Shown one piece after another: positions 1,055 to 64,000 of a stretch of 64,000 nt of DNA. Below the pieces are notes generated by a model. That model did no database searches. It worked only from the letters and a program-made list of their open reading frames with translations, and was not told the origin of the DNA. A program made the position numbers and the translations under genes. How positions within the stretch are numbered: the stretch's first letter is position 1; the number at the start of each line of letters is the position of its first letter. This stretch comes from Eledone cirrhosa. Its lineage: Eukaryota. The stretch covers positions 88,350,001-88,414,000 of the forward strand of contig OZ024740.1 in the NCBI GenBank assembly GCA_964016885.1, in the 5' to 3' direction.

Positions 1055-1150
1055 ACCCCGACGGCTGAGCTCAAGCCGTTTCGACGGCTAATTCTGGACT
1101 AAAGGAACATTTTTATCCTGGTATTTGAATAGCCGAGCTTCTCAAGGGGT
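1055..1150 (-). ncRNA. Mirror copy of the family A hammerhead motif
   Basis: Reverse complement of 2144-2239 in the left arm; core and stems I and III identical. Confidence 0.68.
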
Positions 1151-2143: not shown

Positions 2144-2239
2144 ACCCCTTGAGAAGCTCGGCTATTCAAATACTAGGATACAAATTTTCATTTAGTCCAG
2201 AATTAGCCGTCGAAACGGCTTGAGCTCAGCCGTCGGGGT
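2144..2239 (+). ncRNA. Type I hammerhead ribozyme motif, U3:A8 core variant
   Basis: acccc-TTGAGAA-[stem II g..cggcta/tagccg..c, long loop]-GAAA-cggct tgagctc agccg-TC-ggggt; stem I acccc/ggggt; GUC cleavage triplet. Confidence 0.7.
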
Positions 2240-6025: not shown

Positions 6026-6457
6026 TTTTGAGTTTATGTTGGTTGTATACCAACACCTCAGTATGCAGGCTGGAGCACTCGACGAAGTGCGCAGGTTGGT
6101 TTGGTTACTCCGGAGTAGTGTAAAATAAAGTTAAATAAAAGTCAAATGATTAAAATTTAGCTTCGTTTATTACTGCTATATATATTTCAGTGACAGCCAT
6201 CTTTGGCTGTGACCTCTTCAGGCAGTTTGAATTAGTATGGTACAGTTCCACAGTTCCTCAGTGAATTAACAACCCAACAAGGAACTGAGCATATCAGAGT
6301 ATTGACAATATTATACACCTAAACAACATATGTACTTGTCTATACCATACTAATTCAAACTGCCTGAAGAGGTCACAGCCTAAGATGGCTGTCACTGAAA
6401 TATATATAGCAGTAATAAACGAAGCTAAATTTTAATCATTTGACTTTTATTTAACTT

Positions 6458-13796: not shown

Positions 13797-14493
<697 letters not shown>

Positions 14494-14498
<5 letters not shown>

Positions 14499-15203
14499 AT
14501 GCTTTGGGAGGGTCATGTTGCCAATAAGAAACACACACACCAGCTGCTTTCACTTCAATTTATTATAAGTTAAATTTATAAATTTAAGAATTTATAAATT
14601 TCCGGTTGGTTGCTTGGTTCCACAACCAGACGATTGTTCATATATTGTCAAAGTTCTATCGTCACACATTCTGTGACCTCTTCAGTGACTGGGGATTCTT
14701 TTCTTTGTTTTTGTGCCTCTCCTTTGTTCTGTCCAACGCCATCTTGTTTTTGTGTGTGTTGTGTGTTTAGTTTGCGCATGTGTTACATCCTGGTGTCTGT
14801 GTGTGTTTATATTTGTTTATTTATTTGTTTATTTACATGTTACTGGTTGGTTGTTTGTTCTATGTGTATGTGTGTTTTCATTTTGTCCTTAATTGTAAGT
14901 TTTGATGTTGCTATTCCATTCATGTTTTCTATTTAATTTTGACTGGAGTTCATTAATGTTTATTGCCTCTGTGATTTGTCTAAACATTGCGTCTTTTCTG
15001 CGTGTAGATTCTATTTTTATTTCTATGTTCTCTAATTTACCTTTATGTTCTATTTTAGCATGTTGGTGGAGTACAGATGATTCTTTACTATCTTGAAGCT
15101 CTCGCCAGTGTTCATTTAACCGTTCTCCTATACTACGCGCTGTCTCACCTATGTACACTATATTCTTATCTCTACATTGTCCTTCATTACATCTTATGCT
15201 ACA
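14494..15203 (-). mobile_element. 5'-truncated Penelope-like element (GIY-YIG C-terminus plus pLTR)
   Basis: Minus ORF YSIRC..IVYIGETARSIGERLNEH...EAINI..LNRKHEW; diverged reverse complement of 16377-17109; TA-flanked. Confidence 0.9.
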
Positions 15204-15425: not shown

Positions 15426-16688
15426 GGAAGGAGCAGCCATTGGTGTTAGCATTGCAGGCGACATAGCTAACTTATTCATGGTATGGTGGGACAGTAGACT
15501 TAAACAAAAACTTAAAGAACAATTAGAAGACAGCTTAACCCTGATAATGTACTCCCGCTACGTAGATGATATAAACATCGTAGTTAAGACACCCCCACTA
15601 AAGAACAGTCAGGAACTAGAGAAAAACACAATGGAAAGCATCCAGCAAATAGCAAACTCCATCCACCAGAGCATTAGAGTTACTATAGACTACCCAAGTA
15701 GATACCCCAACCATCGATTACCTGTACTAGACACAGAGCTCTGGTTAGATACCATTAACAACCAAAAACAAATCCTCCATTCCCATTATGCCAAACCCAT
15801 GACTTCCAAACATCTGATCCACCGAAACTCGGCCATTTCGGACCATACCAAAATCAACATACTGATTGCGGATTTGGTACGGGTGATGAGAAATGTGTCC
15901 CGCATGTGCAACCCCGAAGAACTAGAGAGACACATACAACACTTCATCCACTGTATGCAGTTCTCTGGCTACAATCAGAGAGATAGAATCAGAGTGTATA
16001 GAGGAGCCAGAACCAAATGGGAAAAAATGGTAAATAATGACATAAATGGGACCTGCCCCTTGTATAGGAGCAAATTTTGGAATAGAATAGAAAGAACTAG
16101 GAACAAGGCCAATAGAATAAACTCATGGTATGATAGCAATAAATACCAGAGTGTAATGTTCATCAATACAACCCCTAGAGGCGAACTAGCTACAAATTTA
16201 GAAGGGCCCTAAATAAACATAAACTCAATATTAAGATAGTAGAAAGACCAGGTACCTCCGTAAAAACACTTATTAGCAAGACATACCCGTTCCAAAGACC
16301 CTCATGTATAGATAAGAAATGTATAACCTGTAAAATAAGCCCCCATATTAACTGTAAAACTAGAAATGTAGTGTATAGCATAAGATGTACTGAAGGACAA
16401 TGTAGAAACAAAAATATAGTGTACATAGGTGAGACAGCTCGTAGTATAGGGGAACGAATAAATGAACACTGGCGAGACCTTCAAGATAATAAAGAATCAT
16501 CTGTGCTCTACCAACATGCTAAGATAGAACACAGGGGTACATTAGAGAACATAGAAATAAAAATAGAATCCACACACAGAAAAGATGCAATGTTTAGGCA
16601 AATTACAGAGGCAGTAAGCATAAAAGAATTACAACCAAAATTAAATAGAACATATGAGTGGAACAGCAACATCACAACTTACAATTAA
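15426..16688 (+). pseudogene. PLE RT C-terminus/thumb, Cys-rich linker and GIY-YIG endonuclease; one frameshift near 16195
   Basis: GAAIGVSIAGDIANLFM, RYVDD, LPVLD, HYAKP; linker CIDKKCITCKISPHINC; VVYSIRC...YIGETARS. Confidence 0.92.
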
Positions 16689-16901
16689 GGACAAAATGAA
16701 AACACACACACACATAGAACAAACAACCAACCAACAATAAATAAATAAATAAATAAATAAACAAATAGATAAATGAACACAAACACACACAGACACCCGG
16801 ATGTGGCGCATGCGCAAACTGAGCACACAACACACACACAGAAACAAAATAGCGTAGGATAGAAGAAAAGAAAGGCACAGAAACAAAGAAAGGCATCCCC
16901 A

Positions 16902-16944
16902 GTCACTGAAGAGGTCACAGAGTGTGTGACGAAAGGACTATGCC
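16902..16944 (+). ncRNA. Minimal type I hammerhead motif in PLE pLTR (paralogue 14647-14689, minus strand)
   Basis: gtca-CTGAAGA-g gtcaca gagtg tgtgac-GAAA-ggac-TA-tgcc; the paralogue has intact stem I (gtca/tgac) but GATA instead of GAAA. Confidence 0.72.
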
Positions 16945-17171
16945 TATATATAAACAACTATCTGGTTGTGGAACCAACCAACCAACCAACCAGAAATTTA
17001 TAAGTTTGTAGATTTGTAAATTTATAAATTTATAAATATATAATAAATTGAAGTGAAAGCAACTGGTGCGTGTGTTTCTTATTGGCAACATGACCCTCCC
17101 AAAGTATAACAATATCGGTTTCAACACACGATTTCAGATAAAGAATCTTGGTAAACAAATTCAGAAACGAA

Positions 17172-17461: not shown

Positions 17462-18140
17462 CAGTTCTGGTATCTCAAATTAACACAATAGAACAACCAC
17501 TATTATTGACACCATATATATTTCCGTGGGTACCTAGTACCTACTGGGATATCTATATCAATTATCTAATTCTCCTTAATGTAGAGAAAAAATATGCTGT
17601 ATCATGCTGCTATTTCTAGCAGCATGAAATATCAGCGAGTCTATAATTCCCGCTTTTTCTAACGGTCCAATAAGTGTGTGGGTCATTTTAACGGCTTGAT
17701 TCATTCACTGGGCAGCGGTTGATATATCTACATCTATACGGACTTATGTCTAGTAGATCTGGAAAAGCTATCTGAAGAGTTATATCTTTCCATTGGAAAT
17801 TCTCTGAATTTCCAATATTTTGATAAGCGAAACCGCCGGTCATAGCACTGGAAGAGATAAATATTTAAATCGTATTTTAATTTATTTAAAAGATTGTTTA
17901 ATGTTTACTTGTTCCGCTCATATTCATATATATATATATAAATATATATATATATAATATATAAGATCAAAAGATGGTTAAACGAGTTCCATGTATTTTA
18001 TTATGCGCATTTCAAAAACAAATATCATCATGCGATAACATTTGCGTTTTCGTCAGATAAAATATGAAGGTTAAAAAACACTTGTGAATAGTGCAGTTTT
18101 AAATCAACATACGAAAAGTAATTTTAGATTGGTGTGTGAT

Positions 18141-40669: not shown

Positions 40670-43632
40670 CTACAGGCTGATATAGAGAGAAGGCCCATTC
40701 ACTCGGGCCATTCTCGCCACTTTCACCCACCTTTCATAAAACTTGCTGGGGTAGAGCACCTCTCTCTCCATTCTGATCCTTCTTCTAAAATGGTACTTAA
40801 AAGGACCAGTTGTTGGCCGGAGTGAAAAGTGTCTGACCTCAGCCCTTTCAACCTCGTCCACCATATATAACATCTTTCGCACTAGCTATCACACAGAGGA
40901 AAACCGCCTCTCCTTCGTTCCTCATAGCCCCACAAGTCAGCAACGTCCGGGCAGTGTACAAATGCGTGCTCGACGGTTTCCTCGTCACGCACGCATCTCG
41001 GACAGATCTTCTTCGAGGGGTCCCTACCCGGGTGCCCGTGTCTGTAGAGTTTGTCTCGAACGGGTAGAGCTCCTCGGTAGCACTGCCAAGCCAGGGACTT
41101 TTGGAAGTTGTACATCGGTCCCGGGACAAACGTCCTACAGAACAGACTGGCTAGCTCGTCTTCCTCCATGCCCAGAGCCTCTCCGAGAGCGTCGTCGCAC
41201 TTGCTGCGCACCAACCCTCTATAGAATGTTGAGGTTGAGTCTCCACTGATTGCCGGATCCGCTTGCCAGAGGGCCGTGAGCGCCTGGGCACATTCAATGT
41301 GCCAGTCGCCCACTTTTCTCGGTCTTTGCTTGACCCAAGATTGCAGCTCGGTGAGTGAGACGAGTCTCGGAAAGGCTTGCCTCACAATAGGGGCCCACAC
41401 CGGCTGACCGGTGAAGAATACCTGGAGGTGTCGTAGCCTTAATGCGTGTCTATGCATCGTCAGCCACGGCATCCTCAGCCCTGCGTTCGAAGGGTGTTGA
41501 CAGCAGATGGATCTAAAGGAGCCCTCTTCTTCCAAAGGAACCCGGAAGAGCCTGCGCTCCATTTTGGCGAGCCTTTTTGCTAGGCAAGGAACGACGGTCA
41601 AGCGGTAGCAGATGACGGACGCTATATAAGTGTTCGCCACCTCCGCTCGACCTTTCAGGGATAGTTTGCACTCGGCCCACTTCTGGGCGAGTGCAAACAC
41701 CCTGCCCGTTACCTCGTCCCAGTTTTTCTTCACTTGGAGGTCCCGTCCGAACCAGACCCCCAGAAGCTTCACCGGTGCCTCCGTCCAGCGTCCGACGACG
41801 CCATCGGAGAGCATCGGTTTGCTGTCCACGTTCCGAGTTGCAAACCGATGGACTTGTCCCGGTTCAGCTTGGCTCCTGTAAACCTTTCGTATTCCTCCAT
41901 TAAGGTGCCGATCTGCCCGATTTCCGAGGCGCACGACACCATTACTGTCACGTTATTGGCGTAGGCCGACACATCTTTCTGCAATCCCGGTTCCAAGGGG
42001 ATTCCCTGCAACAGCTCCAACTTCCGCAGTAGTGGCTCGAGAGCCAGCACATACAGAAGGGGGGAGAGAGGTCATCCCTGTCGGATGGATCGCCCGATTT
42101 GGAACGGCTCCGAGAATGCAGCCGTTCACCTTGACCCTCGAGCAGGTGTTGCTGCTGTGCATTGCAGCAATCCATCCCCTGAAAACGGGTCCGAAGCCTG
42201 CCGGCGCGAGCACCGCATCCAGGTACCGATGGTCGACCCTATCGAACGCCTTAGATTGATCCAAGTTAATCAGGGCCCCACCAAAGCCGGGTTCGTTCTC
42301 TTCACTCTCTACGATGTATCGCATGAGGTAGAGGTTGTCGTGTATTGACCTGTACTGGATTGCGCATGTGCGCGCTTCTCCCACCAGGTTCCCGACGACA
42401 AGCGCCAACCTCTTCGCTAACACCTTGGTCAAAAACTTTAACTCTATGTTTAGCAGAGTTATGGGCCTGAAGTTATCTATGTCATCCCCTTTGTTCTCGT
42501 CCTTCCTCACCAGCGTGACTACGCCCTTGGTCACAGAACTGGGAATTCTCCAGTTCTGTTGCCAGTTGCAGTAGACCGCCTCAAGGAGATCGGAGAACAA
42601 GTCCGTCATCACTACATAAAGTTCGTATGGTAGACCATCGAGACCGGGAGATTTGCGTTTACCGCATTGGCTCAGCGCTTCCCCTATTTCAGCGGCTGAA
42701 ATCGGCCTTTTGCAGGACTTCGCCTCCACATCCGAGAGCCGCGGCAGGACGTCGAGGTATGGGCCGAAATCCATGGCCTCACCTAGCCCGCCGCCCCTCC
42801 CGAAAAGTCGTGCAAAGCGCCGTTGAAAGGCCGCGAACGTCCGCTCAGGTTCAAGGATCACGCGTCCATCCTGGTCCTTCAAAGACCGAATCGTGGACTT
42901 GTTTCCACTTTTTGCCTCTGTCATTCGGGCCCAACTAACAGCTTTGGCTCCCTCGTTGCCCAGAGCACGTATTTTACTCCTGACAACACAGCCCTCGTGC
43001 TTCGCGTCAAAGAACTGGTCTATGGCGGTTCTTGACGCCAGCACACCGGCCACGTTGCACCTCCTAATCGCATCTTATACTCTATCTATCAATTCCCTTT
43101 CAGTTCTATTCCTATCTGATACTAATTCCTGACTAAAACCTATCGATTCTATTCTAATTTCTCTCCTGAGAGAGCCCCACCACCTGCTGTTGACAATTGC
43201 CCCCGTCAACCGCTGCTTAACTAGAGTGCTAACCCTCTTTGTCGGTAAGGACAACTTTAGCTTCCAGTAACCGGGTCCTTGTCTATGGGTTCTATCAAGG
43301 TTAACCACTCCGGTCACCAACTTGTGATCCGAATAGTCAACCATGAACATTCGTAGGACAGCTTAATATGTCCCTACCCTTATTTCTAACTAGGAACCTA
43401 TCTAGGTACGACCTAGATGTTACGCCGAGATTAGTCCACGTCCACAGTGGCACAGTCGGAAAATTTAGTCGATATCCAACCCCCGGCTGACAGAGAGATG
43501 CATAGATCTCAAAGTCGTCGAAGATGTGCTCGCTGCTGATCCTGGACTTGCAAATAGCTATCACATCCATTCTGTGCCATGATGCTTCCAGGACATCCCC
43601 AGGCCACGCACATTTAAACATCCAACTCTTAT
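40670..43632 (-). pseudogene. ORF2 (APE endonuclease, RT, zf-RVT) with multiple frameshifts
   Basis: MPVIRVGCLNVRGL; WTW..SYLDRFL; SDHKLV; GYWKL; KSPGLDGLPYE; NFRPITLLN; LDQSKAFDRVDH; AYANN (decayed YADD); KLLGVWF. Confidence 0.92.
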
Positions 43633-43838
43633 AACAGGCATGTTGGTGGTGAAGTGTTTAGAGTGGAGAAAAAGGAAAAGACACCTACCTGTCCTTCTCC
43701 TGGGGACCAGGCTGCACAATTTCCATGGGGGTGTCGGCGGTGTTGTTTGGTGGGGTGGTTGTTTGGGATGTGGTGGGGACATCAGTGTGTGTGGTGGTGT
43801 GTCTGGGGTGGTGGTGGTGGTGGTGGTGGGGAAACATT

Positions 43839-44822
43839 TCAAGAGGACGCGGTTGTTAGGTCTAGTACAGGGGTTCCCCACGTCCTCGGGAAAGTTCTGT
43901 TTGAGCATTGCGGTATTCTTGCTATCCGTTCTGGTCTCATTTGGACCAGAACTTCAAGGCTATTGCCGTCGAATACGCCCCCGGTGGATTCGCCTATCGA
44001 AAGGATTGTGTCCACATCTTCTAAGAATCCCGTTAGCACCCACCAAATGCTCGCATTTGGCCTGATGCCCGAGATTCTTATCTATTGAGTTCTTTTCTCC
44101 AAATATGTGGGGAAAAAGGTGTATGCTTTGGATACATTTGGCGACACAGAATATTTCCGTGCCGCCAATTCATCTTGCATTAAAACAGATATACTTCCAT
44201 ACAGTTTCCCTTTCTGTATGAAAGCGATATCCTTCCAGGAACTACTTAGGACTAGCTCAATTTCGCTTTGGGACAATTGAGCCGGTTTCCTAGTCGTGTT
44301 CGGAACTGTCCTAAAGATTACAGTCCTGAGAACTGTGTCCCTTCTAATTTCTTCGGGGAAGGTAATTGTGAATTCCCCACCTTTCCCGAAAGTTACACAA
44401 TTCCTTGCTTCTTTCAGCAATTTCTTGGCATTCGAGATGTCCAGTGCCTTGTGTGTCGGCGTTTCTCGGACCGCCTGTGCGAAGGAGACTGCAGCTGTGG
44501 GTCCGTTTTCTTTCGTGTTGTTATCATTGTTGTTGTTGTTATTCGTGTTGACTTGCTTTTTTCCTTTGTTGGTGTTGTCATTGTTGCTGTTGTTGGATGT
44601 GTTGTTATTGTCATTGTTGTTCTTGTTTGTGTAATTGTTACTTTTGGGGTTTTCACCCATTTCCATAATTTTTTCTTTTGATTCTGTGGTGTCTTTTGCT
44701 GGAGTGAGGAAGGAAGGCTTACAGCATTGTGCTGCTACCTTCTCTCTATCACTTTCCTTGGGGGGCGTGGCATGCGTCGTATTAATAGCGTCCATTGTCA
44801 CTAAACGACTTTTTATCGACAA
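43839..44822 (-). pseudogene. ORF1 (gag-like) of the Tx1/L1 element, disrupted
   Basis: 246-aa ORF with Asn-rich segment and SFAQAV motif, continuing in 43839-44039; lies upstream of APE. Confidence 0.7.
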
Positions 44823-45415
44823 CTTATAACTATCAAATTTCGTCCCAAAAAGGGGCGAAATTTATTTTACCCAACGTCTGCAGGCCCAGGCGATGGGTTA
44901 AACACAACAAATAACAAATTACTTAAACAGACCTACCGCTTCTCGTAATAAATTCCGACAAAATGCAGGAGCGAAACAAAAACACGTCTATCTTCTCCGA
45001 GATAGATAGATAGATAGATAGATAGATACATAGCTCAAAATGAATAAAGATAAACATTTTCTTCTTCTTCACTCACTTATTCCTGAGAAAGTCCTCAAAC
45101 ACTTATTCCAGGGGATTATAGAACAAAGTTGATTATTTAAAGCATATTACATCAAACATAGCGTTATGAGTATATCGGCTAAAACTAGATTTTTAGAGCT
45201 TCATTTATACAAATTATTTTTAGGCATGATAATATATAAGTAGTATAGTCAAACATAGTAAGGAAAAGATACGTTTATAATGAAACGTAATTCTACTTAT
45301 ATGATTGCTTAGACTTAGGTTTCAGATAACCAAGAATTATGCTAATCACCATAATTGAAATCGTTAATCAGTAAATTAAGGCCGTCATTACTCATCATTA
45401 AGCTCTTCATACCTA

Positions 45416-49711: not shown

Positions 49712-49914
49712 GTTATTCCGGGTTGAATCGGAGGTAACCACAGTAAGTAAGGTACTCAATACATAGCAGAGTATAACAGTTTTAATATAGATGAGATTCT
49801 ACAGGACTAGAACTGTTTCATTCATTAGAAATCATCAGGAATCCCAGAGATTCCTGATGATTTCTAATGAATGAAACAGTTCTAGTCCTGTAGAATCTCA
49901 TCTATATTAAAACT
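49709..49914 (-). mobile_element. ~200-bp fold-back mini-element consisting of two opposed hammerheads plus a tail
   Basis: Perfect arms 49778-49843 / 49849-49914; tail 49709-49777; (TA)n on both sides. Confidence 0.88.
49847..49899 (+). ncRNA. Type I hammerhead motif (mirror ~49793-49843, minus strand)
   Basis: gagattc-CTGATGA-t ttc taat gaa t-GAAA-cag ttctagtc ctg-TA-gaatctc; 7-bp stem I, GUA site, short stem II. Confidence 0.82.
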
Positions 49915-49936
49915 ATATATATATATATATATATAT

Positions 49937-51017
49937 CGTAGTCGACAACACCTACTTCGGATTCCTTGACCAAATATACCAACAAACCTCGGGATTGCCC
50001 ATGGGATCAAGTCTATCAGGTGTACTAGCGATCTCCTACATGGACAACCTCGAACGAAAGGCTCTCAACGCCTGCCACCCCAACGCCGTAGCCTTTTTCT
50101 CAAGATACGTGGACGATATCCTCATCCTCACATCTTCCCAAGACACGGCGAACAGAATCTATGAGACGTTCAACAACACGGACGAGAACATTGACTTCAG
50201 TGTTGAACACCCCAACGAAGACGGGTCACTTGCCCTCCTCGACTTCCGAATCAACACCACGGAACAAGGAGGGATCCACTGCAACTTCTACAGAAAGGCA
50301 GCCTGCAGGGACCTATTCGTTCACTACAAGTCCGCCCTCCCTAACAGTGCCAAAAGAGGATACATCACGAACGAGATCGCGCGGATCAAAGACAGATGCA
50401 GCGATCCCGCGAGTAGTGTCACTCATACCAAGCGATTCCTCGAGGTGCTGGAGACGAACGGGTACCCTACCTCGATCACAGACAGAATAGGAGACACCAG
50501 ACGCAAGAGACCGAGAAGCACCCAAGGCAAGTGCTTCCTTAAAATACCACACCTGGGCGAGTAAACCACCAACGCTATCCGCAAGGCTATACGGAGGGAG
50601 GGCCTCGACATCCACCTGGCCCACTCGGGCCCCTCCCTGCGAAGATGCCTCTCCAGGAAAACCGAAAAGTCTACTGACGCATGCTCCCTCAGAGACTGCC
50701 CGATACGCCATGCTAACTGTTGCCTACGCACATACGTCGTGTATAAGATATAATGTGACAGGTGCAACCAATACTACATAGGTAGCACAATTCGACCTTT
50801 GCACATCCGGATCAAGGAACACATTAAAACCAGGGCCTCGTCTTTCCGGAAACACATAGACAAATGCGGAAACAAAGACGGAAGGCCCATTGTCACAATT
50901 CTAGCGACTGAAAGAAACGTCGGCACGTTACGTATTAAGGAAGGGCTTCTTATCAAACGACTACAACCGCAAATAAACAACCGATTAGAGAGAAGCGAAA
51001 TGAAATGGCTGGTTTAA
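49937..51017 (+). pseudogene. PLE RT C-terminus and GIY-YIG endonuclease with in-frame stops (~50562, ~50751)
   Basis: YQQTSGLPMGSSLSG, RYVDD, LLDF, FYRK, L..NGYP; VVYKI*CDRCNQYYIGSTIRPLHIRIKEH; KEGLLIKRLQPQIN. Confidence 0.92.
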
Positions 51018-51769: not shown

Positions 51770-53034
51770 GATATTAATAAATGGAAACTATATTTATAAA
51801 ACCATATTTATTTCATTATACATATTTCAGGGATACCAAATTAAATTATGGTATGCCTTCATCAGACAAAATACAATATATAACAATTTTACCAATAAGC
51901 TTTGACGTACCCTATGCAACCATTATTTTTGGAAGCCATCCGGATAGTGAGTTGTTTATATTATTTTAATAAGTCATAGTGTTAAGGACAATTAGAAAAA
52001 GACGGAGAGAGAGAAAGGAAAAAACGTGAAGAAGTATCAGAGAGAGAGAGATGCATGCAGAAAAAAGAAAGAGATAAATAAAGACAGGAGGAAAGAAAGA
52101 AAAAAGGAAGAAATAAGAAATAAGAAAAACAGAGGAAAGCAACAGAGAGATATTAAGTCATTAGACAGATAGGAAAACTCAAGAGAGAGAAATATTATAT
52201 ATAGAGAGGGGGAAATAATGAAAATTTTACGTCATGTCATTAAGTTGAGTTAACAATTTATATGAAATGAATAATAAAAATATAAATATTAATATTCATG
52301 AATGGGACATAAATATATAATATGAGAAATTAAGCATTGTTCAATAATGACTACATGTTTAGTTTAAAACTTGAGATCAATATACCAAAATTTGGGTTTA
52401 ATCAACCAAAATGCTACAGAAATCAGTATCTTAGGCAAAGACACACAAATATATATATATATATACGCACGTCCTGAAAATATATTTACTCAAGTCAACA
52501 ATATAGACATATAAAACGCAGACGATTTCTCTTAATCACTGCTATACATTCCTTGTGCTATAAAAAAGTTCACAGTACATATACATAAATATATACGATT
52601 AACATTCCTGTCTTCATATATACGATTACCATTCATGCATTTAACATTCTGTTAAAATTATGCATATCTGCAATCAAAACTGCGTGGTTAAGCAACATAT
52701 CTCTTACCCACAGACATAGATATACATACATATGACTTATTAAAATAATATAAACAACTCACTATCCGGATGGTTTCCAAAAATAATGGTTGCATTTTAA
52801 TAGGGTACGTCAAAGCTTATTTGTAAAACTGTTATATATTGTATTTTGTCTGATGAAGGCATACCATAATTTAATTTGGTATCCCTGAAATATGTATAAT
52901 GAAATAAATATGGTTTTATAAATATAGTTTCCATTTATTAATATCGTATATCTACTCCAAATACTTGTCGAGTGCTTTATATCAGTTATAAAAATATTTA
53001 CTTGTTGTATCCCAACAATTTTAAATAGAACTTT

Positions 53035-54147: not shown

Positions 54148-56850
54148 CTAAGGCGGGTAAAATTCCCGAGATCCATGGACGAGTTCTCTCCAGCGGTCTC
54201 TGTCCCTCATTATCGCTGCCATATCCTGCATATCCAACAGACCAGTGTCTGTCCTTAGGGCATCAACATATGTTAACCTTGGTCTTCCTCTTCTAGTGTG
54301 TCCATGTAGGGGCTCCCAAAGGAGCACTGAGTGCAATGTCAACTCTGGATGTCGGTGAGCATGTCCAGCCAACCTCAGTCTCCTCTGTGTCACTTTTGAG
54401 CTGACTTTTGGGATGCTCCCATACAGCTCTGAGTTTTTCATCCTCAGTGTATACTGATTAATGTTCAGAGCCATCCTCAGCATTCTCGTGTAGCACCCAT
54501 CCACCATCTGAGTGAGTCTCTTGGTCAGTGTCCAAGTCTCAGACCCATACAGCAGCACAGACTCCACTACAGCAATGAAGAGGCGGATTTTCAGGTCTCT
54601 ACGAAGGTCCGACTTCCACACCGATCTCAAGCTGTGACACGCCGCCCAGGCCTTGCTCTTCCTCCCAACCACATCATCTTCCGTATTCCCAATCTTTGCT
54701 CCCAAATACAGGAAGTCCTCAACCAATTCCAGCGGCTTCCCGCCTACATTAGTGATCCCCTCTGGCTTCTCAACATTCTCCACCAGATATTTTGTTTTAG
54801 TCTCATTCATTCTCAGCCCCACACTCATCGACACAGTCTCAACCTCTCGCATCAAATCCTCTGCCTCCTTCACTGTATTTGTCACCAAAACTATGTCGTC
54901 GGCAAATTCAGCATCCGATACCTTTTTCGCCCCAACTCTCCTGCTCTGAGCCGGTGCTACAGTAAAGCCAGTGTCCTGGTATTTCGCCAGTGCAAGGCGC
55001 ATACAATAGTCCACTACGATGATAAAAAGATAGGGAGCCAATGTATCTCCCTGGAGCACTCCAGCCAGTATCTCAAAGAACTCTATCATCCCATCAGGTG
55101 TAATGACTTGGGCTTTGGTGTTGGTGTAGAGCAGTGATATCAGGTCCACTATCCTCTTGGGGATTCCATAAGCCTGTAAGATCTTCATCAGGCAGTAACG
55201 GTCCACATAATCAAAGGCCTTCCTAAAGTCAATGAAAACCATGACCGCAGGAAGGCACTTTGCTCTAGCTCCCTCTAATATCCTCCTCAGCATCAGGATG
55301 TGACTGGTGGTTGATCTACCCTCTCTGAAGCCGTTCTGGTTGTCCCCGAGCTTCTTCTCCATCTCAGGCTGGATCCTGTTAAGAATCATCCTGTTGAGGG
55401 TCTTTGCCACAAGTGACGTCAGTGAGATCCCCCGGTAGTTGTTGGTGTTAGAGAGATCTCCCTTCTTTGGCACTGGGACGATGTTACTGATCCTCCACTG
55501 ATTCGGGGCAACTCCTTTCTCCAGTGCCCCGTTACAGAACCCCAGGATGATATCATCAAAATCACACCTCTTCATCACCTCTGATGCCACTCCATCCTCT
55601 CCATGAGCCTTGCCCTCCTTGATCTTCTTCTTGGCTCTCTGAAGCTCCTCTCTGGTGAAGGGCTCTGTCTCAACATCCAGTTCCTCAAACAGCCGCCTGA
55701 TCTCCCCACTGCTCTGGGCTGTGGAGGGTGGCTCTCCTAGTAGGGTCCTAAAATGGTCTAGCCATTTCCTCTTCCTATCCTCGGACCCCGTTCCCTGGAT
55801 CTGACTCGAACACCTTTTCTTCCTCCCTGTGATCTCGTTGATGATCATCCAGCCCTCCTTACATCCAGATCTGTCAACCGCTCTCTCCACACTTCTGATC
55901 TTCTCTATCAGTGCCTCCTCTCTGACCTCAGTGTAAGCGGTACAGAGCTCTTCCCTCATCACCTCCACAGTCTCCATCCCCTCCTCCGTAGGATCAGCAT
56001 AGAATTGGTCCCTGGCAGCTTTCAGGTGTTCTCTGGCTGCACACACTTTTGGGTTTGCAGAGCTGACGTGCTTCCCTTTGTTCTTTTTCCTCGGCACCAG
56101 GGTTTCACTTGCTTTCGCCACTGCATTAGTGAAGTGCCCGTACCTCCTCGTCACACTCTCCTCAGTCCATCCAATCTCTCTCTCCTCTGACTCTCCACAC
56201 AGAGCACTAAACCTGTTTCTCACTTCCACTGTGAACCTCTCCTGTAGCTTATCATCTTCCTTGAAAGCTCCCAGTCATAGATTGTTTCTCCGGGGCTGAG
56301 CCTTGCTCTTTCTTAAGCTCACGCGGACCTCACTCATAACAAGCCGGTGGTCACTACACAGTGTACTGAAATAGATGTATGGTTCCGTGTTCAGAACACT
56401 ATTCCGCCACTTTTTCCTCACCAGAATGAAATCAATCTGGGACTTGGACAGGTGCATATCTGAGATGTAGGTCCACATCTTCCCCAGATTCTTCCTAAAC
56501 CTTAGGTTGGTTGCCATCAAGTTCGCCTCCAGCAGGGTGTCTCTCAGTAGTCTTCCATTTCGGTTGGTGTTGTTATGGAAGTACCAGCAAGGATCTTCAC
56601 TGCCCTCCTTACTCAGATGTGCATTGAAGTCCCCCAAAACAAGCAGGATATTGTGTGCCTGAGTGGTGTTGACAGCCCCACACACCTCCTCATGGAACTC
56701 CTCGGCATTCACATCACTGTCCCCCTCGGTTGGACTATAGGCTGAGATGACTGTCAGTCTTGGGTTTCCATTGAAGGTCACCCTCAACACTCGCGGGGAG
56801 ATAGGCATTATTTCCCTCACCAACAGATTGGTTTTTGCACTGAACACAAA
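54148..56850 (-). mobile_element. RTE-clade LINE, 5'-truncated, nearly intact ORF (APE plus RT), inserted in (TA)n
   Basis: APE: SAYSPT, LGDFNA, QIDFIL, SDH; RT: NYRGISL, QNGFR, FIDFRKAFD, GVLQGDTLAPYLF, FADD, YLG; ORFs 56275-56847 and 54148-56229 are in the same frame, separated by one TGA; (TAGA)n tail. Confidence 0.95.
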
Positions 56851-56854
56851 GTGT

Positions 56855-58380
56855 TATATATTTACCTCGGCTGCGTTTGTCTGTTTCTCTCTACTCCTTC
56901 CCCGTTCTCTTTGTTGCTCTCACCTTCTCTCACTCCCTCTGTCAGTTACTCTTTCTCTCGACTGACCTCTTCTTCGCACTTCCACTCACTCACTCTTTGT
57001 TTCTCCCCTTCTCACTTCCTTCCGTTTGGCTAGTAGTGGGTTCTCTTCTTGCTCACATCTCTCTCACGTTGGATGGTCTGTATCTTGATAGCTCGAAATC
57101 CACCCAGATTACGCTGACCGGATAACCATGTTGCTTGTTTATTCCCGTCTTTGCGTTTCTTTTATCCTTCTATGTTGTTTACTTGTCTCACTCGCTTTAC
57201 GCGATTTACTTGTCCCAATAGCTTTTTTTAGTTATTGCTCGCACCAACCTGAGGTATATGATTTTTAATGCGATGAAATATCAATGATGGTTGGCAAATC
57301 ACTGACGAAGGACTATTTTTATCATATGTAACCCATGTGCAACCACGCAGTATTCTTCTTTCTTCTCATGTTTTTTATATATATTTACCTCGGCTGCGTT
57401 TGTCTGTTTCTCTCTACTGCTTCCCCGTTCTCTCTGCTGCTCTCACCTTCTTTCGCCCCCTCTGTCAGTTACACTTTCTCTCGACTGACCTCTTCCCCGC
57501 ACTTCCACTCACTCACTCTCTGTTTCTCCGCTTCTTGCTCACATCTCACTCACGTAGGATGGTCTGTACCTTGATCGCTCATGAAATCCACCCAGATTAT
57601 GCTGACCGGATAACCATGTTGCTTGTTTATTCCCATCTTTGCGTTGCTTTCATCCTTCTATGTTGTTTACTTGTCTCACTCGCTTTACGCGATTTACTTG
57701 TCCCAATAGCTTTTTTTAGTTATTGCTCGCACCAACCTGAGGTATATGATTTTTAATGCGATGAAATATCAATGATGGTTGGCAAATCACTGACGAAGGA
57801 CTATTTTTATCATATGTAACCCATGTGCAACCACACAGTATTCTTCTTTCTTCTCATGTTTTTTATATATATTTACCTCGGCTGCGTTTGTCTGTTTCTC
57901 TCTACTGCTTCCCCGTTCTCTCTGTTGCTCTCACCTTCTTTCACCCCCTCTGTCAGTTACACTTTCTCTCGACTGACCTCTTCCTCGCACTTCCACTCAC
58001 TCACTCTCTGTTTCTCTCCTTCTCACTTACTCCCGTTTGGCTAGTAGTGGGTTCTCTTCCTGCTCACATCTCACTCACGTCGGACGGTCTGTATGTTGAT
58101 CGTTCATGAAATCCACCCAGCTTAAGCTGACCGGATAACCATGTTGCTTGTTTATTCCCATCTTTGCGTTGCTTTCATCCTTCTATGTTGTTTACTTGTC
58201 TCACTCGCTTTACGCGATTTACTTGTCCCAATAGCTTTTTTTAGTTATTGCTCGCACCAACCTGAGGTATATGATTTTTAATGCGATGCAATATCAATGA
58301 TGGTTGGCAAATCACTGACGAAGGACTATTTTTATCATATGTAACCCATGTGCAACCACGCAGTATTCTTCTTTCTTCTC

Positions 58381-58387
<7 letters not shown>
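56855..58387 (+). repeat. Three tandem ~490-520-bp units joined by short TA runs (pLTR-like array)
   Basis: tttacctcggctgcgtttgtc at 56861, 57384 and 57872 (spacings 523 and 488 bp). Confidence 0.92.
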
Positions 58388-58462
<75 letters not shown>

Positions 58463-58902: not shown

Positions 58903-59034
58903 AAGAATTAATATCTAGTAACATATATATACATACAGATGCATATCAATGCTAGCAAATATATAGGTTTTGTCTTAGTATCTTTGTGGTTCAATGCATA
59001 TATATATATATATAAGAGAAATAGGATTTCGCTT

Positions 59035-59641
59035 CAAGCATAGCTTTATACAATATGTATAATTATTTCGTATCTCCAAGGAAATACGATTTTAGGAAGT
59101 CGTAGGTATGCAAACACCGGGGGGGGGGGGGGGGGGGGCTAACGCTCTCTGGTGATGTCCAGCAGAAGCAAGGGGGACAACCGTCAAATTCAGGCTTAAC
59201 TGGCCTTCGTCAGGACGGTTCCTCCCACCGCTTGCGACTGATGGACTAGAAAACAATAGCGTAAGGTCTTCGAAAAGCTTTTAATTAAGCATACAGTGTA
59301 TTGCAAAATACACTATATATACATTCATATATATATCGCTATTTCAGAGCACCAATTCTAATTTTCAATTTCTGCTTGACCGGCAACCGCTCTGTATAAT
59401 CAGTTCCTGATTATTACTAGAATTCTATAAGAATCAAACATTCATGATTTTTAGCAAACAGGCGGAGTACTTGGCTTTGATAAGTACCAATCAGTACGAA
59501 ACAGAGCTGTCAGCTTTATCTCCCCTGTTTGCTGAAAATTTAAAGTAAGTGAGACTGTCACTACTCTAAAACAATAGCGTAAGGTCTTCGAAAGGCTTTT
59601 AATTAAGCATACAGTGTATTGCAAAATACATTATATATACA

Positions 59642-59644
<3 letters not shown>
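59035..59644 (+). mobile_element. TA-flanked non-coding element with ~78-bp direct repeats (59250-59327 / 59567-59644)
   Basis: aaaacaatagcgtaaggtcttcgaaa...tatatacattc occurs twice; a hammerhead motif lies between the repeats. Confidence 0.7.
59473..59515 (+). ncRNA. Compact type I hammerhead, U3:A8 core variant
   Basis: ggct-TTGATAA-gtac caatca gtac-GAAA-cag ag ctg-TC-agct; all three stems pair; GUC site. Confidence 0.78.

Positions 59645-59736
<92 letters not shown>

Positions 59737-61358: not shown

Positions 61359-64000
<2,642 letters not shown>

What the first reader, a model, noticed from the sequence alone, without database searches (positions are those of the whole stretch)
59473..59515. 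Second, unrelated U3:A8 hammerhead (43 nt) between direct repeats
Seen: ggct-UUGAUAA-gtac/gtac-GAAA-cag/ctg-UC-agct with all stems pairing, located between two ~78-bp direct repeats 317 bp apart. An independent occurrence of the same double change argues for selection on catalysis (inference). The direct-repeat layout resembles a tandem pLTR or retrozyme-like unit.
Basis: partly seen in the sequence, partly recalled or inferred. Interest (0 to 1): 0.72.

Follow-up and report, generated by a model that had tools for sequence, protein, structure and literature searches.

The report
Damaged hammerhead copy in retrozyme family
This is one damaged copy of a 320-base non-coding repeat present about a thousand times or more in this animal genome; it carries a predicted self-cutting RNA with an already published base swap and was likely pasted in by a Penelope-type jumping-gene enzyme, so it is a new example of a known kind.

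Summary
The 43-nt type I hammerhead with a U3:A8 core is present and beyond chance. It is one copy of a 320-bp tandem-unit repeat. The 'direct repeats' are the overlap of a 1.27-unit insertion (offset 318). This copy has lost 2 nt of the family's 12-nt palindromic helix III and is predicted to be crippled. U3:A8 is family-wide: one pattern gives 970 U3:A8, 310 C3:G8, 12 U3:G8 and 13 C3:A8, and the stems covary. That supports selection on the fold in source elements, not in this copy. Insertions show Penelope footprints: partial tandems, inverted arms, (TA)n targets and two 3' ends 26-31 nt apart. No parent with an ORF was found. U3:A8 is published as natural and active (PMC3088659) and in Penelope-like elements (PMC4209133); this scan has noted such elements before on other DNA. 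The window copy is joined head-to-head to an arm of a different hammerhead repeat, a possible two-RNA co-insertion. Cleavage and expression are untested. Verdict: new member of a known kind (non-LTR retrozyme).

The parts
59473..59515 (+). Type I hammerhead motif, U3:A8 core, GUC site (predicted cut 59511/59512)
   Evidence: family covariation
59502..59509 (+). Helix III, 8 nt here; the family has a perfect 10-nt palindrome (12 nt with A15.1/U16.1), so 2 nt are missing in this copy
   Evidence: other contigs carry 2 extra letters behind 59506
59448..59538 (+). Long distal extension of stem I (59448-62 pairs with 59524-38), with the hammerhead at its tip
   Evidence: 121-nt fold z = -4.97; 6 of 15 pairs with changes on both sides; coordinates
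59250..59645 (+). Family B arm: 1.27 units of the 320-bp monomer, 5'-truncated, ending at the short 3' site
59250..59336 (+).
59568..59654 (+). Second copy of the terminal redundancy (direct repeat 2), running into the TA run
59337..59364 (+). 'Tail' segment between the short and long 3' end sites of the family (internal in this copy)
   Evidence: (loose ends at 59362 followed by TA)
59646..59731 (.). (TA)n run at the 3' end of the family B arm (likely target)
59015..59249 (-). Family C arm: 5'-truncated end of a different hammerhead repeat, head-to-head with the B arm, ending at its long site in a TA run (about 58999-59014)
   Evidence: (2186 candidates)
59181..59218 (-). Degenerate C3:G8 type I hammerhead of the family C arm (helix III damaged in this copy)

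Best explanation
The motif is the hammerhead of one 5'-truncated, 1.27-unit copy of a 320-bp non-coding tandem-unit repeat, likely a non-autonomous retrozyme copied into (TA)n by a Penelope-like element's enzyme, and this copy is predicted to cleave poorly because it has lost 2 nt of helix III. Shown: family membership, copy structure, covariation, the two 3' end sites, the deletion. Inferred: source copies are transcribed as multimers; two hammerheads pair their 12-nt palindromic helices III (predicted -20.1 kcal/mol), which frees the core from a monomer misfold, and cut at GUC to release 320-nt monomers that may circularise; a Penelope-type RT/GIY-YIG protein nicks AT-rich DNA and starts reverse transcription at one of two internal sites 26-31 nt apart, running past one unit and often making two head-to-head arms. 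U3:A8 is a tolerated compensatory form of the 3:8 pair, fixed in a source lineage.
For: Family: 1262 candidates, 40 scored, full-length matches 95-98% identical; 1027 exact core and stem II matches. 3:8 states with one pattern: U:A 970, C:G 310, U:G 12, C:A 13, so 1280 of 1305 are Watson-Crick; the 25 mismatched copies split between both backgrounds (6+6 and 5+8), as post-insertion decay would give. Alignment of 51 of 68 distinct variants: 14 of 30 pairs change on both sides against 7.8 +/- 1.7 shuffled, 0 of 500 shuffles as high; the helix III palindrome is kept through sequence change. Penelope footprints: 75 of 139 insertion clusters have a head-to-head arm of the same family; 45 of 62 'tail' ends lie 26-31 nt past the internal TA run; one arm long and one short in 27 of 31 scorable two-armed insertions, p = 1.7e-5. 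Two monomers folded as circles give z = -6.7 and -6.9. Related family A (310 bp, C3:G8) forms arrays with 218 of 226 within-locus unit pairs identical. Literature: PMC4209133, PMC7229834, PMC11167929, PMC8557442, bioRxiv 2026.07.22.740005.
Against: No cleavage or expression data exist here. The monomer's best fold is inactive even in intact copies (active fold 3.0-3.7 kcal/mol uphill). Rfam scores are far below cut-off. Family B arrays are no more alike within (median 0.060) than between loci (0.064), and L002 mixes two subfamily types in one array, so a circular monomer template is not shown for this family. No autonomous partner was identified. In print: 8 of 9 Xenopus retrozyme dimers did not cleave in vitro (bioRxiv 2026.07.22.740005), and hammerhead cleavage was not needed for PAc insertion in vitro (PMC11167929). 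Covariation counts share ancestry; the 3:8 switch may be a single event (AU test p = 0.198).
Confidence: 0.8

Rival explanations
1. The unit is the pLTR of an autonomous Penelope-like element, and the window copy is a 5'-truncated stub.
For: Tail, inverted arms and TA targeting are pLTR features. An unrelated Penelope-like family in this genome carries a U3:A8 motif downstream of its RT/GIY-YIG-like ORF. Three clusters are fused in the same direction to Penelope ORF pieces (L002, L008, L143).
Against: Units join head-to-tail with no ORF between them, with 11 hammerheads detected across one 5.5-kb array (L202). After the tail, 115 of 206 distinct contexts continue into the unit, 77 into TA and 14 into something else with no shared continuation. 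No intact ORF runs into the unit among 258 clusters, overlapping loci included. The ORF beside L025/L026 has its own, different pLTR and hammerhead. The three fusions join at different points and come from two families.
Confidence: 0.1
2. The hammerhead is a catalytically dead or dispensable relic; the repeat spreads through its Penelope-binding end or as satellite DNA, and the pairing is kept for RNA folding or by chance of ancestry.
For: Predicted monomer misfold. Cleavage was dispensable for PAc insertion in vitro (PMC11167929). L041/L042 (a duplicated locus) have a G12A change. Only one or a few 3:8 switches are recorded.
Against: The 3:8 pair is not a secondary-structure helix, yet both bases changed together with no amplified intermediate. 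N7 and loop II vary freely among amplified subfamilies while U4, G5, A6, A9, A13, A14, A15.1 and U16.1 are invariant in 51 of 51 aligned variants. Families A and B keep a full hammerhead with wholly different stems.
Confidence: 0.08
3. A chance motif, or a locus-specific ribozyme selected at this position.
For: The motif is short and has no Rfam hit at cut-off.
Against: No such motif in 60 resampled windows; about a thousand family copies; this copy is damaged relative to the family.
Confidence: 0.02

Closest known systems
Metazoan non-LTR retrozymes (Cervera and de la Pena 2020, PMC7229834, two of six parts read; Li, Clavereau and Pollet 2026, bioRxiv 10.64898/2026.07.22.740005, two of five parts read)
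   Same: Tandem units in the 150-450 bp range, one type I hammerhead per unit, GC under 50%, no ORF, highly self-paired predicted circle, co-occurring Penelope-like elements.
   Different: U3:A8 core in most subfamilies; a 12-nt palindromic helix III, longer than the 1-2 bp stems described; most family B copies are short partial tandems with inverted arms; circular RNA is not shown here.
U3-A8 minimal hammerheads of Cercyon Penelope-like elements in Schistosoma mansoni (Cervera and de la Pena 2014, PMC4209133, parts 1-2 of 4 read)
   Same: The same core covariation (about 1,300 hits there), found beside C3-G8 relatives; dimer-type design.
   Different: Those have a 7-8 bp helix II with a 5' bulge and little or no helix III; this one has a 4-bp helix II with a 6-nt loop, aligns to Rfam HH9 and sits in an ORF-less unit.
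Natural U3-A8 hammerheads (Perreault et al. 2011, PMC3088659, passages read)
   Same: States that C3/G8 covary to U3/A8 in several natural examples and that such ribozymes were already shown active in vitro; also shows palindromic stem III dimers (Figure S8 legend).
   Different: Here both states occur as amplified sister subfamilies in one genome, with countable single-mismatch copies.
pLTR and tail structure of EN+ Penelope-like elements (PMC8557442, passages; PMC11167929, parts 1-2 of 4; PMC3846280, passages)
   Same: Partial tandems, inverted 5'-truncated arm, a tail often at only one end, two internal RT start sites, AT-rich or microsatellite targets.
   Different: No ORF; the tail is 26-31 nt rather than 30-40; some insertions pair arms of two different families.

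Membership tests
Type I hammerhead ribozyme | Core N3-UGA-N-N8-A, GAAA and UH at a three-way junction with stem I open | tested here: met
   C3:G8 is replaced by the published U3:A8
Type I hammerhead ribozyme | Stems I-III supported by covariation | tested here: met
   14 of 30 pairs with two-sided change, 0 of 500 shuffles; sequences are related, so this is not a probability
Type I hammerhead ribozyme | Rfam family score at the gathering cut-off | tested here: not met
   HH9 16.5 bits (window), 17.8 (intact copy), 23 (family A) against 52; the canonical C3:G8 relative also misses it
Type I hammerhead ribozyme | Self-cleavage at the UH site | not testable with these tools
   needs an in vitro assay
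Non-LTR retrozyme | Tandem 150-450 bp units with a type I hammerhead in each | tested here: met
   320-bp period; L026 and L031 have 3 hammerheads, L202 has 11 detected. The window copy holds one, so it is a solo partial copy, not an 'active' dimer by the 2026 preprint's rule
Non-LTR retrozyme | No protein coding, no LTR, low GC | tested here: met
   no ORF of 150 aa or more over the element; local GC 0.35; no ORF between units. PBS and PPT were not searched for
Non-LTR retrozyme | Highly self-paired monomer | tested here: met
   circular folds z = -6.7 and -6.9 against 40 shuffles each
Non-LTR retrozyme | Expressed as linear and circular RNA | not testable with these tools
   no RNA holder listed
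Non-LTR retrozyme | Target-site duplication when present | tested here: inconclusive
   ends lie in TA runs, where a duplication cannot be read
Autonomous Penelope-like element (pLTR) | RT and GIY-YIG ORF flanked by this repeat | tested here: not met
   on the loci fetched only, a minority of all copies
Autonomous Penelope-like element (pLTR) | Tail, inverted 5' arm, AT-rich target | tested here: met
   shows that it inserts like a PLE, not that it is one

The most novel reading that the evidence does not exclude
The locus records a single insertion in which a Penelope-type enzyme primed the two cut DNA strands on two different RNAs: a family B arm ending at its short site and a family C arm ending at its long site. 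Mixed arms would rule out self-priming on one template as the source of Penelope's head-to-head repeats. In addition, the family is a natural experiment on the 3:8 pair: U3 weakens a 7-bp misfold with the palindromic helix III (-7.0 against -9.6 kcal/mol with C3), while the C3:G8 sister weakens it by changing helix III instead (-5.9), so the core swap may have been selected for folding.
Probability: 0.35. Interest if true: 0.55.

Novelty: new member of a known kind. Interest (0 to 1): 0.3.

Why it matters
The U3:A8 core and the retrozyme class are both in print, so the motif itself is ordinary. Two side results are useful. First, amplified U3:A8 and C3:G8 sister subfamilies without amplified intermediates give a ready-made set of natural sequences for testing whether hammerhead cleavage matters to the spread of Penelope-dependent RNAs, an open question (cleavage was dispensable in vitro in PMC11167929). 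Second, two-armed insertions with one long and one short end, some apparently mixing two families, bear on how Penelope-like elements form inverted repeats.

Tried and rejected
1. The RT ORF beside L025/L026 looked like the parent. Rejected: it has its own pLTR and C3:G8 hammerhead, the same family as window 15427-17171, and a TA run separates it from the array in L026. 2. Search for an autonomous parent by tblastn of 8 Penelope-like protein pieces against all fetched loci: only fusions to truncated ORFs of several families. 3. Expression: no RNA holder listed; laying four contig sets of unrecorded kind showed variants and ends only. 4. Rolling-circle test on family B arrays: uninformative, as within-array and between-array distances are equal. 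5. Direction of the 3:8 switch: two hammerhead-masked trees disagree (one search has the C3:G8 subfamily as a clade in an unresolved fork with U3:A8 lineages; nests the main U3:A8 clade within C3:G8), and one U3:A8 clade is not rejected (p-AU 0.198). An unmasked tree was set aside as circular. My early note of a 'likely reversion' is withdrawn. 6. One search overcounted inverted arms because of the internal hairpin and was replaced. The 'ends in TA' class is noisy and was not used as a count. 7. Three scans missed the window's other U3:A8 motif because of its 56-nt stem II; it was printed and recognised. 8. Rfam at cut-off over the window: 0 hits. 9. Lunse et al. 2017 and Przybilski and Hammann 2007 were not held; they are cited only through PMC6765202 and PMC3088659. 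No supplements were read. 10. The long/short rule in mixed-family pairs fits 2 of 3 scorable cases, too few to decide.

Full report
Observation. The motif is at 59473-59515 as described. A type I descriptor found 7 motifs in the window, one with U3:A8, and 60 Markov-resampled windows gave no U3:A8 hit. The flanking repeats are 87-92 nt long and 318 bp apart. The 43-mer's best fold is an alternative hairpin. The best Rfam hammerhead match is HH9, far below cut-off.

What it belongs to. The window lies in a 3.0-Gb genome. The 400-bp stretch has 1262 candidate matches; the 40 scored give full-length matches at 95-98% identity. The copies are built from a 320-bp monomer in partial tandems. The window copy covers 1.27 monomers, so the 'direct repeats' are terminal redundancy, and 318 is 320 minus a 2-nt deletion. 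That deletion lies in helix III: the family has a perfect 12-nt palindrome, and this copy's form was seen once among the 68 distinct variants read. Contigs of public runs show the two extra letters. A 16-mer from the unit occurs 18,504 times. It links this family (B) to family A, 310-311 bp, about 76% alike outside the ribozyme region, with a canonical C3:G8 hammerhead whose stems are wholly different.

Selection. With one pattern, positions 3 and 8 read U:A 970 times, C:G 310, U:G 12 and C:A 13. The 25 mismatched copies come from both backgrounds (U:G 6+6, C:A 5+8), at 0.5-2.6% per site, as expected for decay after insertion. N7 and loop II, by contrast, vary among amplified subfamilies. I aligned 51 of 68 distinct variants, leaving out 17 from loci fetched or overlapping those fetched for being mismatched. 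In that alignment 95.8% of cells pair, 14 of 30 pairs change on both sides (shuffles 7.8 +/- 1.7, 0 of 500 as high), and 3:8 reads UA 42, CG 7, UG 2. Subfamilies keep helix III palindromic through different sequences. These counts share ancestry. Two hammerhead-masked trees disagree on direction, and a single U3:A8 clade is not rejected (p-AU 0.198). So at least one compensatory double change is shown; its direction and number are not. U3:A8 motifs also occur in at least five other sequence families in the fetched loci, including downstream of the ORF of a Penelope-like family and at window 2144-2239. The variant is common in this genome, and independence of origin is unproven.

Predicted folding. 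In intact copies the monomer prefers a 7-bp pairing of helix III's 5' strand with stem I and U3-U4-G5; in context the active fold is 3.0-3.7 kcal/mol uphill, and 6.5 in the window copy. Two intact helices III form a 12-bp duplex of -20.1 kcal/mol, the window's only -9.0. This fits the published dimer model (PMC4209133; review PMC6765202) and predicts that the window copy is crippled. The misfold duplex is -7.0 with U3, -9.6 in a natural C3 copy and -5.9 in the C3:G8 sister, whose helix III differs. That U3 was favoured for this reason is a hypothesis from one lineage.

How it moves. Of 139 insertion clusters, 75 have a head-to-head arm of the same family, 21 have TA at the 5' junction and 30 were unassigned. 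3' ends fall either in an internal TA run or 26-31 nt further on (45 of 62 tail ends), mostly followed by (TA)n. Following a lead from an earlier scan note (e1-8834929), I scored two-armed insertions: one long and one short end in 27 of 31 scorable pairs out of 43 (p = 1.7e-5 against one half). PMC11167929 ties the tail to two internal RT start sites and shows both DNA strands extended in vitro; PMC8557442 notes the tail is often at one end only. These footprints are therefore known for Penelope-like elements. Family A arrays are nearly uniform inside (218 of 226 within-locus pairs identical against 31 of 445 sampled between loci, some of which overlap), as rolling-circle copying or very recent amplification would give. 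Family B arrays are older and do not show this. No intact ORF runs into the unit in the loci fetched, so the element is taken as non-autonomous; the partner is unidentified. The family at window 15427-17171 appears in the most direct fusions (L008, L082, L143, L202), but it is also abundant.

The locus itself. The 235 bp upstream (59015-59249, minus strand) are the truncated 3' end of another hammerhead repeat, family C (2186 candidates). It meets the B arm head-to-head at a short imperfect microhomology and ends in its own TA run. The C arm ends at C's long site and the B arm at B's short site. Up to 7 of 139 clusters are such mixed pairs (4 named, 2 with another hammerhead, and L205); of 3 scorable, 2 fit the long/short rule. 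One event using two RNAs would explain this and would argue against the self-priming model of PMC3846280. Deletion between two neighbouring insertions explains it too. Two paper searches listed no title or abstract on mixed-family arms, and passages of the one close paper did not describe them; that is weak evidence of absence.

Comparison with the known. Natural U3:A8 covariation and its activity are stated in PMC3088659, and about 1,300 U3-A8 motifs in Schistosoma Penelope-like elements in PMC4209133. Retrozymes of similar size are described in PMC7229834 and linked to Penelope pLTRs in bioRxiv 2026.07.22.740005. Thirty earlier notes of this scan hold the same keywords, and the 8 shown describe similar elements on other DNA; they are unchecked AI notes and not support.

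Verdict. A real feature and a new member of a known kind; this copy is likely a non-functional remnant. Interest 0.3. Confidence in the best explanation 0.8.

Noticed in passing
window 2144-2239 (+) and about 1055-1150 (-): Another U3:A8 type I hammerhead family with a 56-nt stem II and a palindromic helix III loop, in two head-to-head arms; its short and long 3' ends are about 80 nt apart.
   Followed up: partly
window 15427-17171 (+), inverted arm about 14480-15200: Truncated Penelope-like element: RT and GIY-YIG-like ORF pieces, pLTR with a C3:G8 minimal hammerhead (core at 16906), tail and TA ends.
   Followed up: partly
window 6173-6412, 51813-52902, 17998-18060, 61997-62068: Six further C3:G8 type I hammerhead motifs, two pairs of them in inverted arrangement.
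   Followed up: no
window about 56900-58390: Three tandem units of about 490-525 bp, 95-98% alike, ending in a TA run; a CUGACGA word without a clear downstream GAAA. Possibly another Penelope-dependent repeat.
   Followed up: no
L043-L090, e.g. G000:C1:1239971-1244170: Family A: very young 310-311 bp C3:G8 retrozyme in two-armed arrays of up to about 15 near-identical units; likely a large share of the 18,504 motif hits.
   Followed up: partly
L036:5241-7040 and L157-L171: Penelope-like family with a CxxxxCxxC linker whose 3' repeat carries a U3:A8 motif with a U-U mismatch at the base of stem II.
   Followed up: partly
L202 (G000:C1:82388500-82398000): A 5.5-kb family B array whose units alternate between variants, suggesting later DNA-level duplication in blocks.
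   Followed up: no
window 40882-44861 (-), 54148-56853 (-), 49911-51014 (+): LINE-like RT/endonuclease ORFs and another Penelope-like fragment; family names not tested.
   Followed up: no
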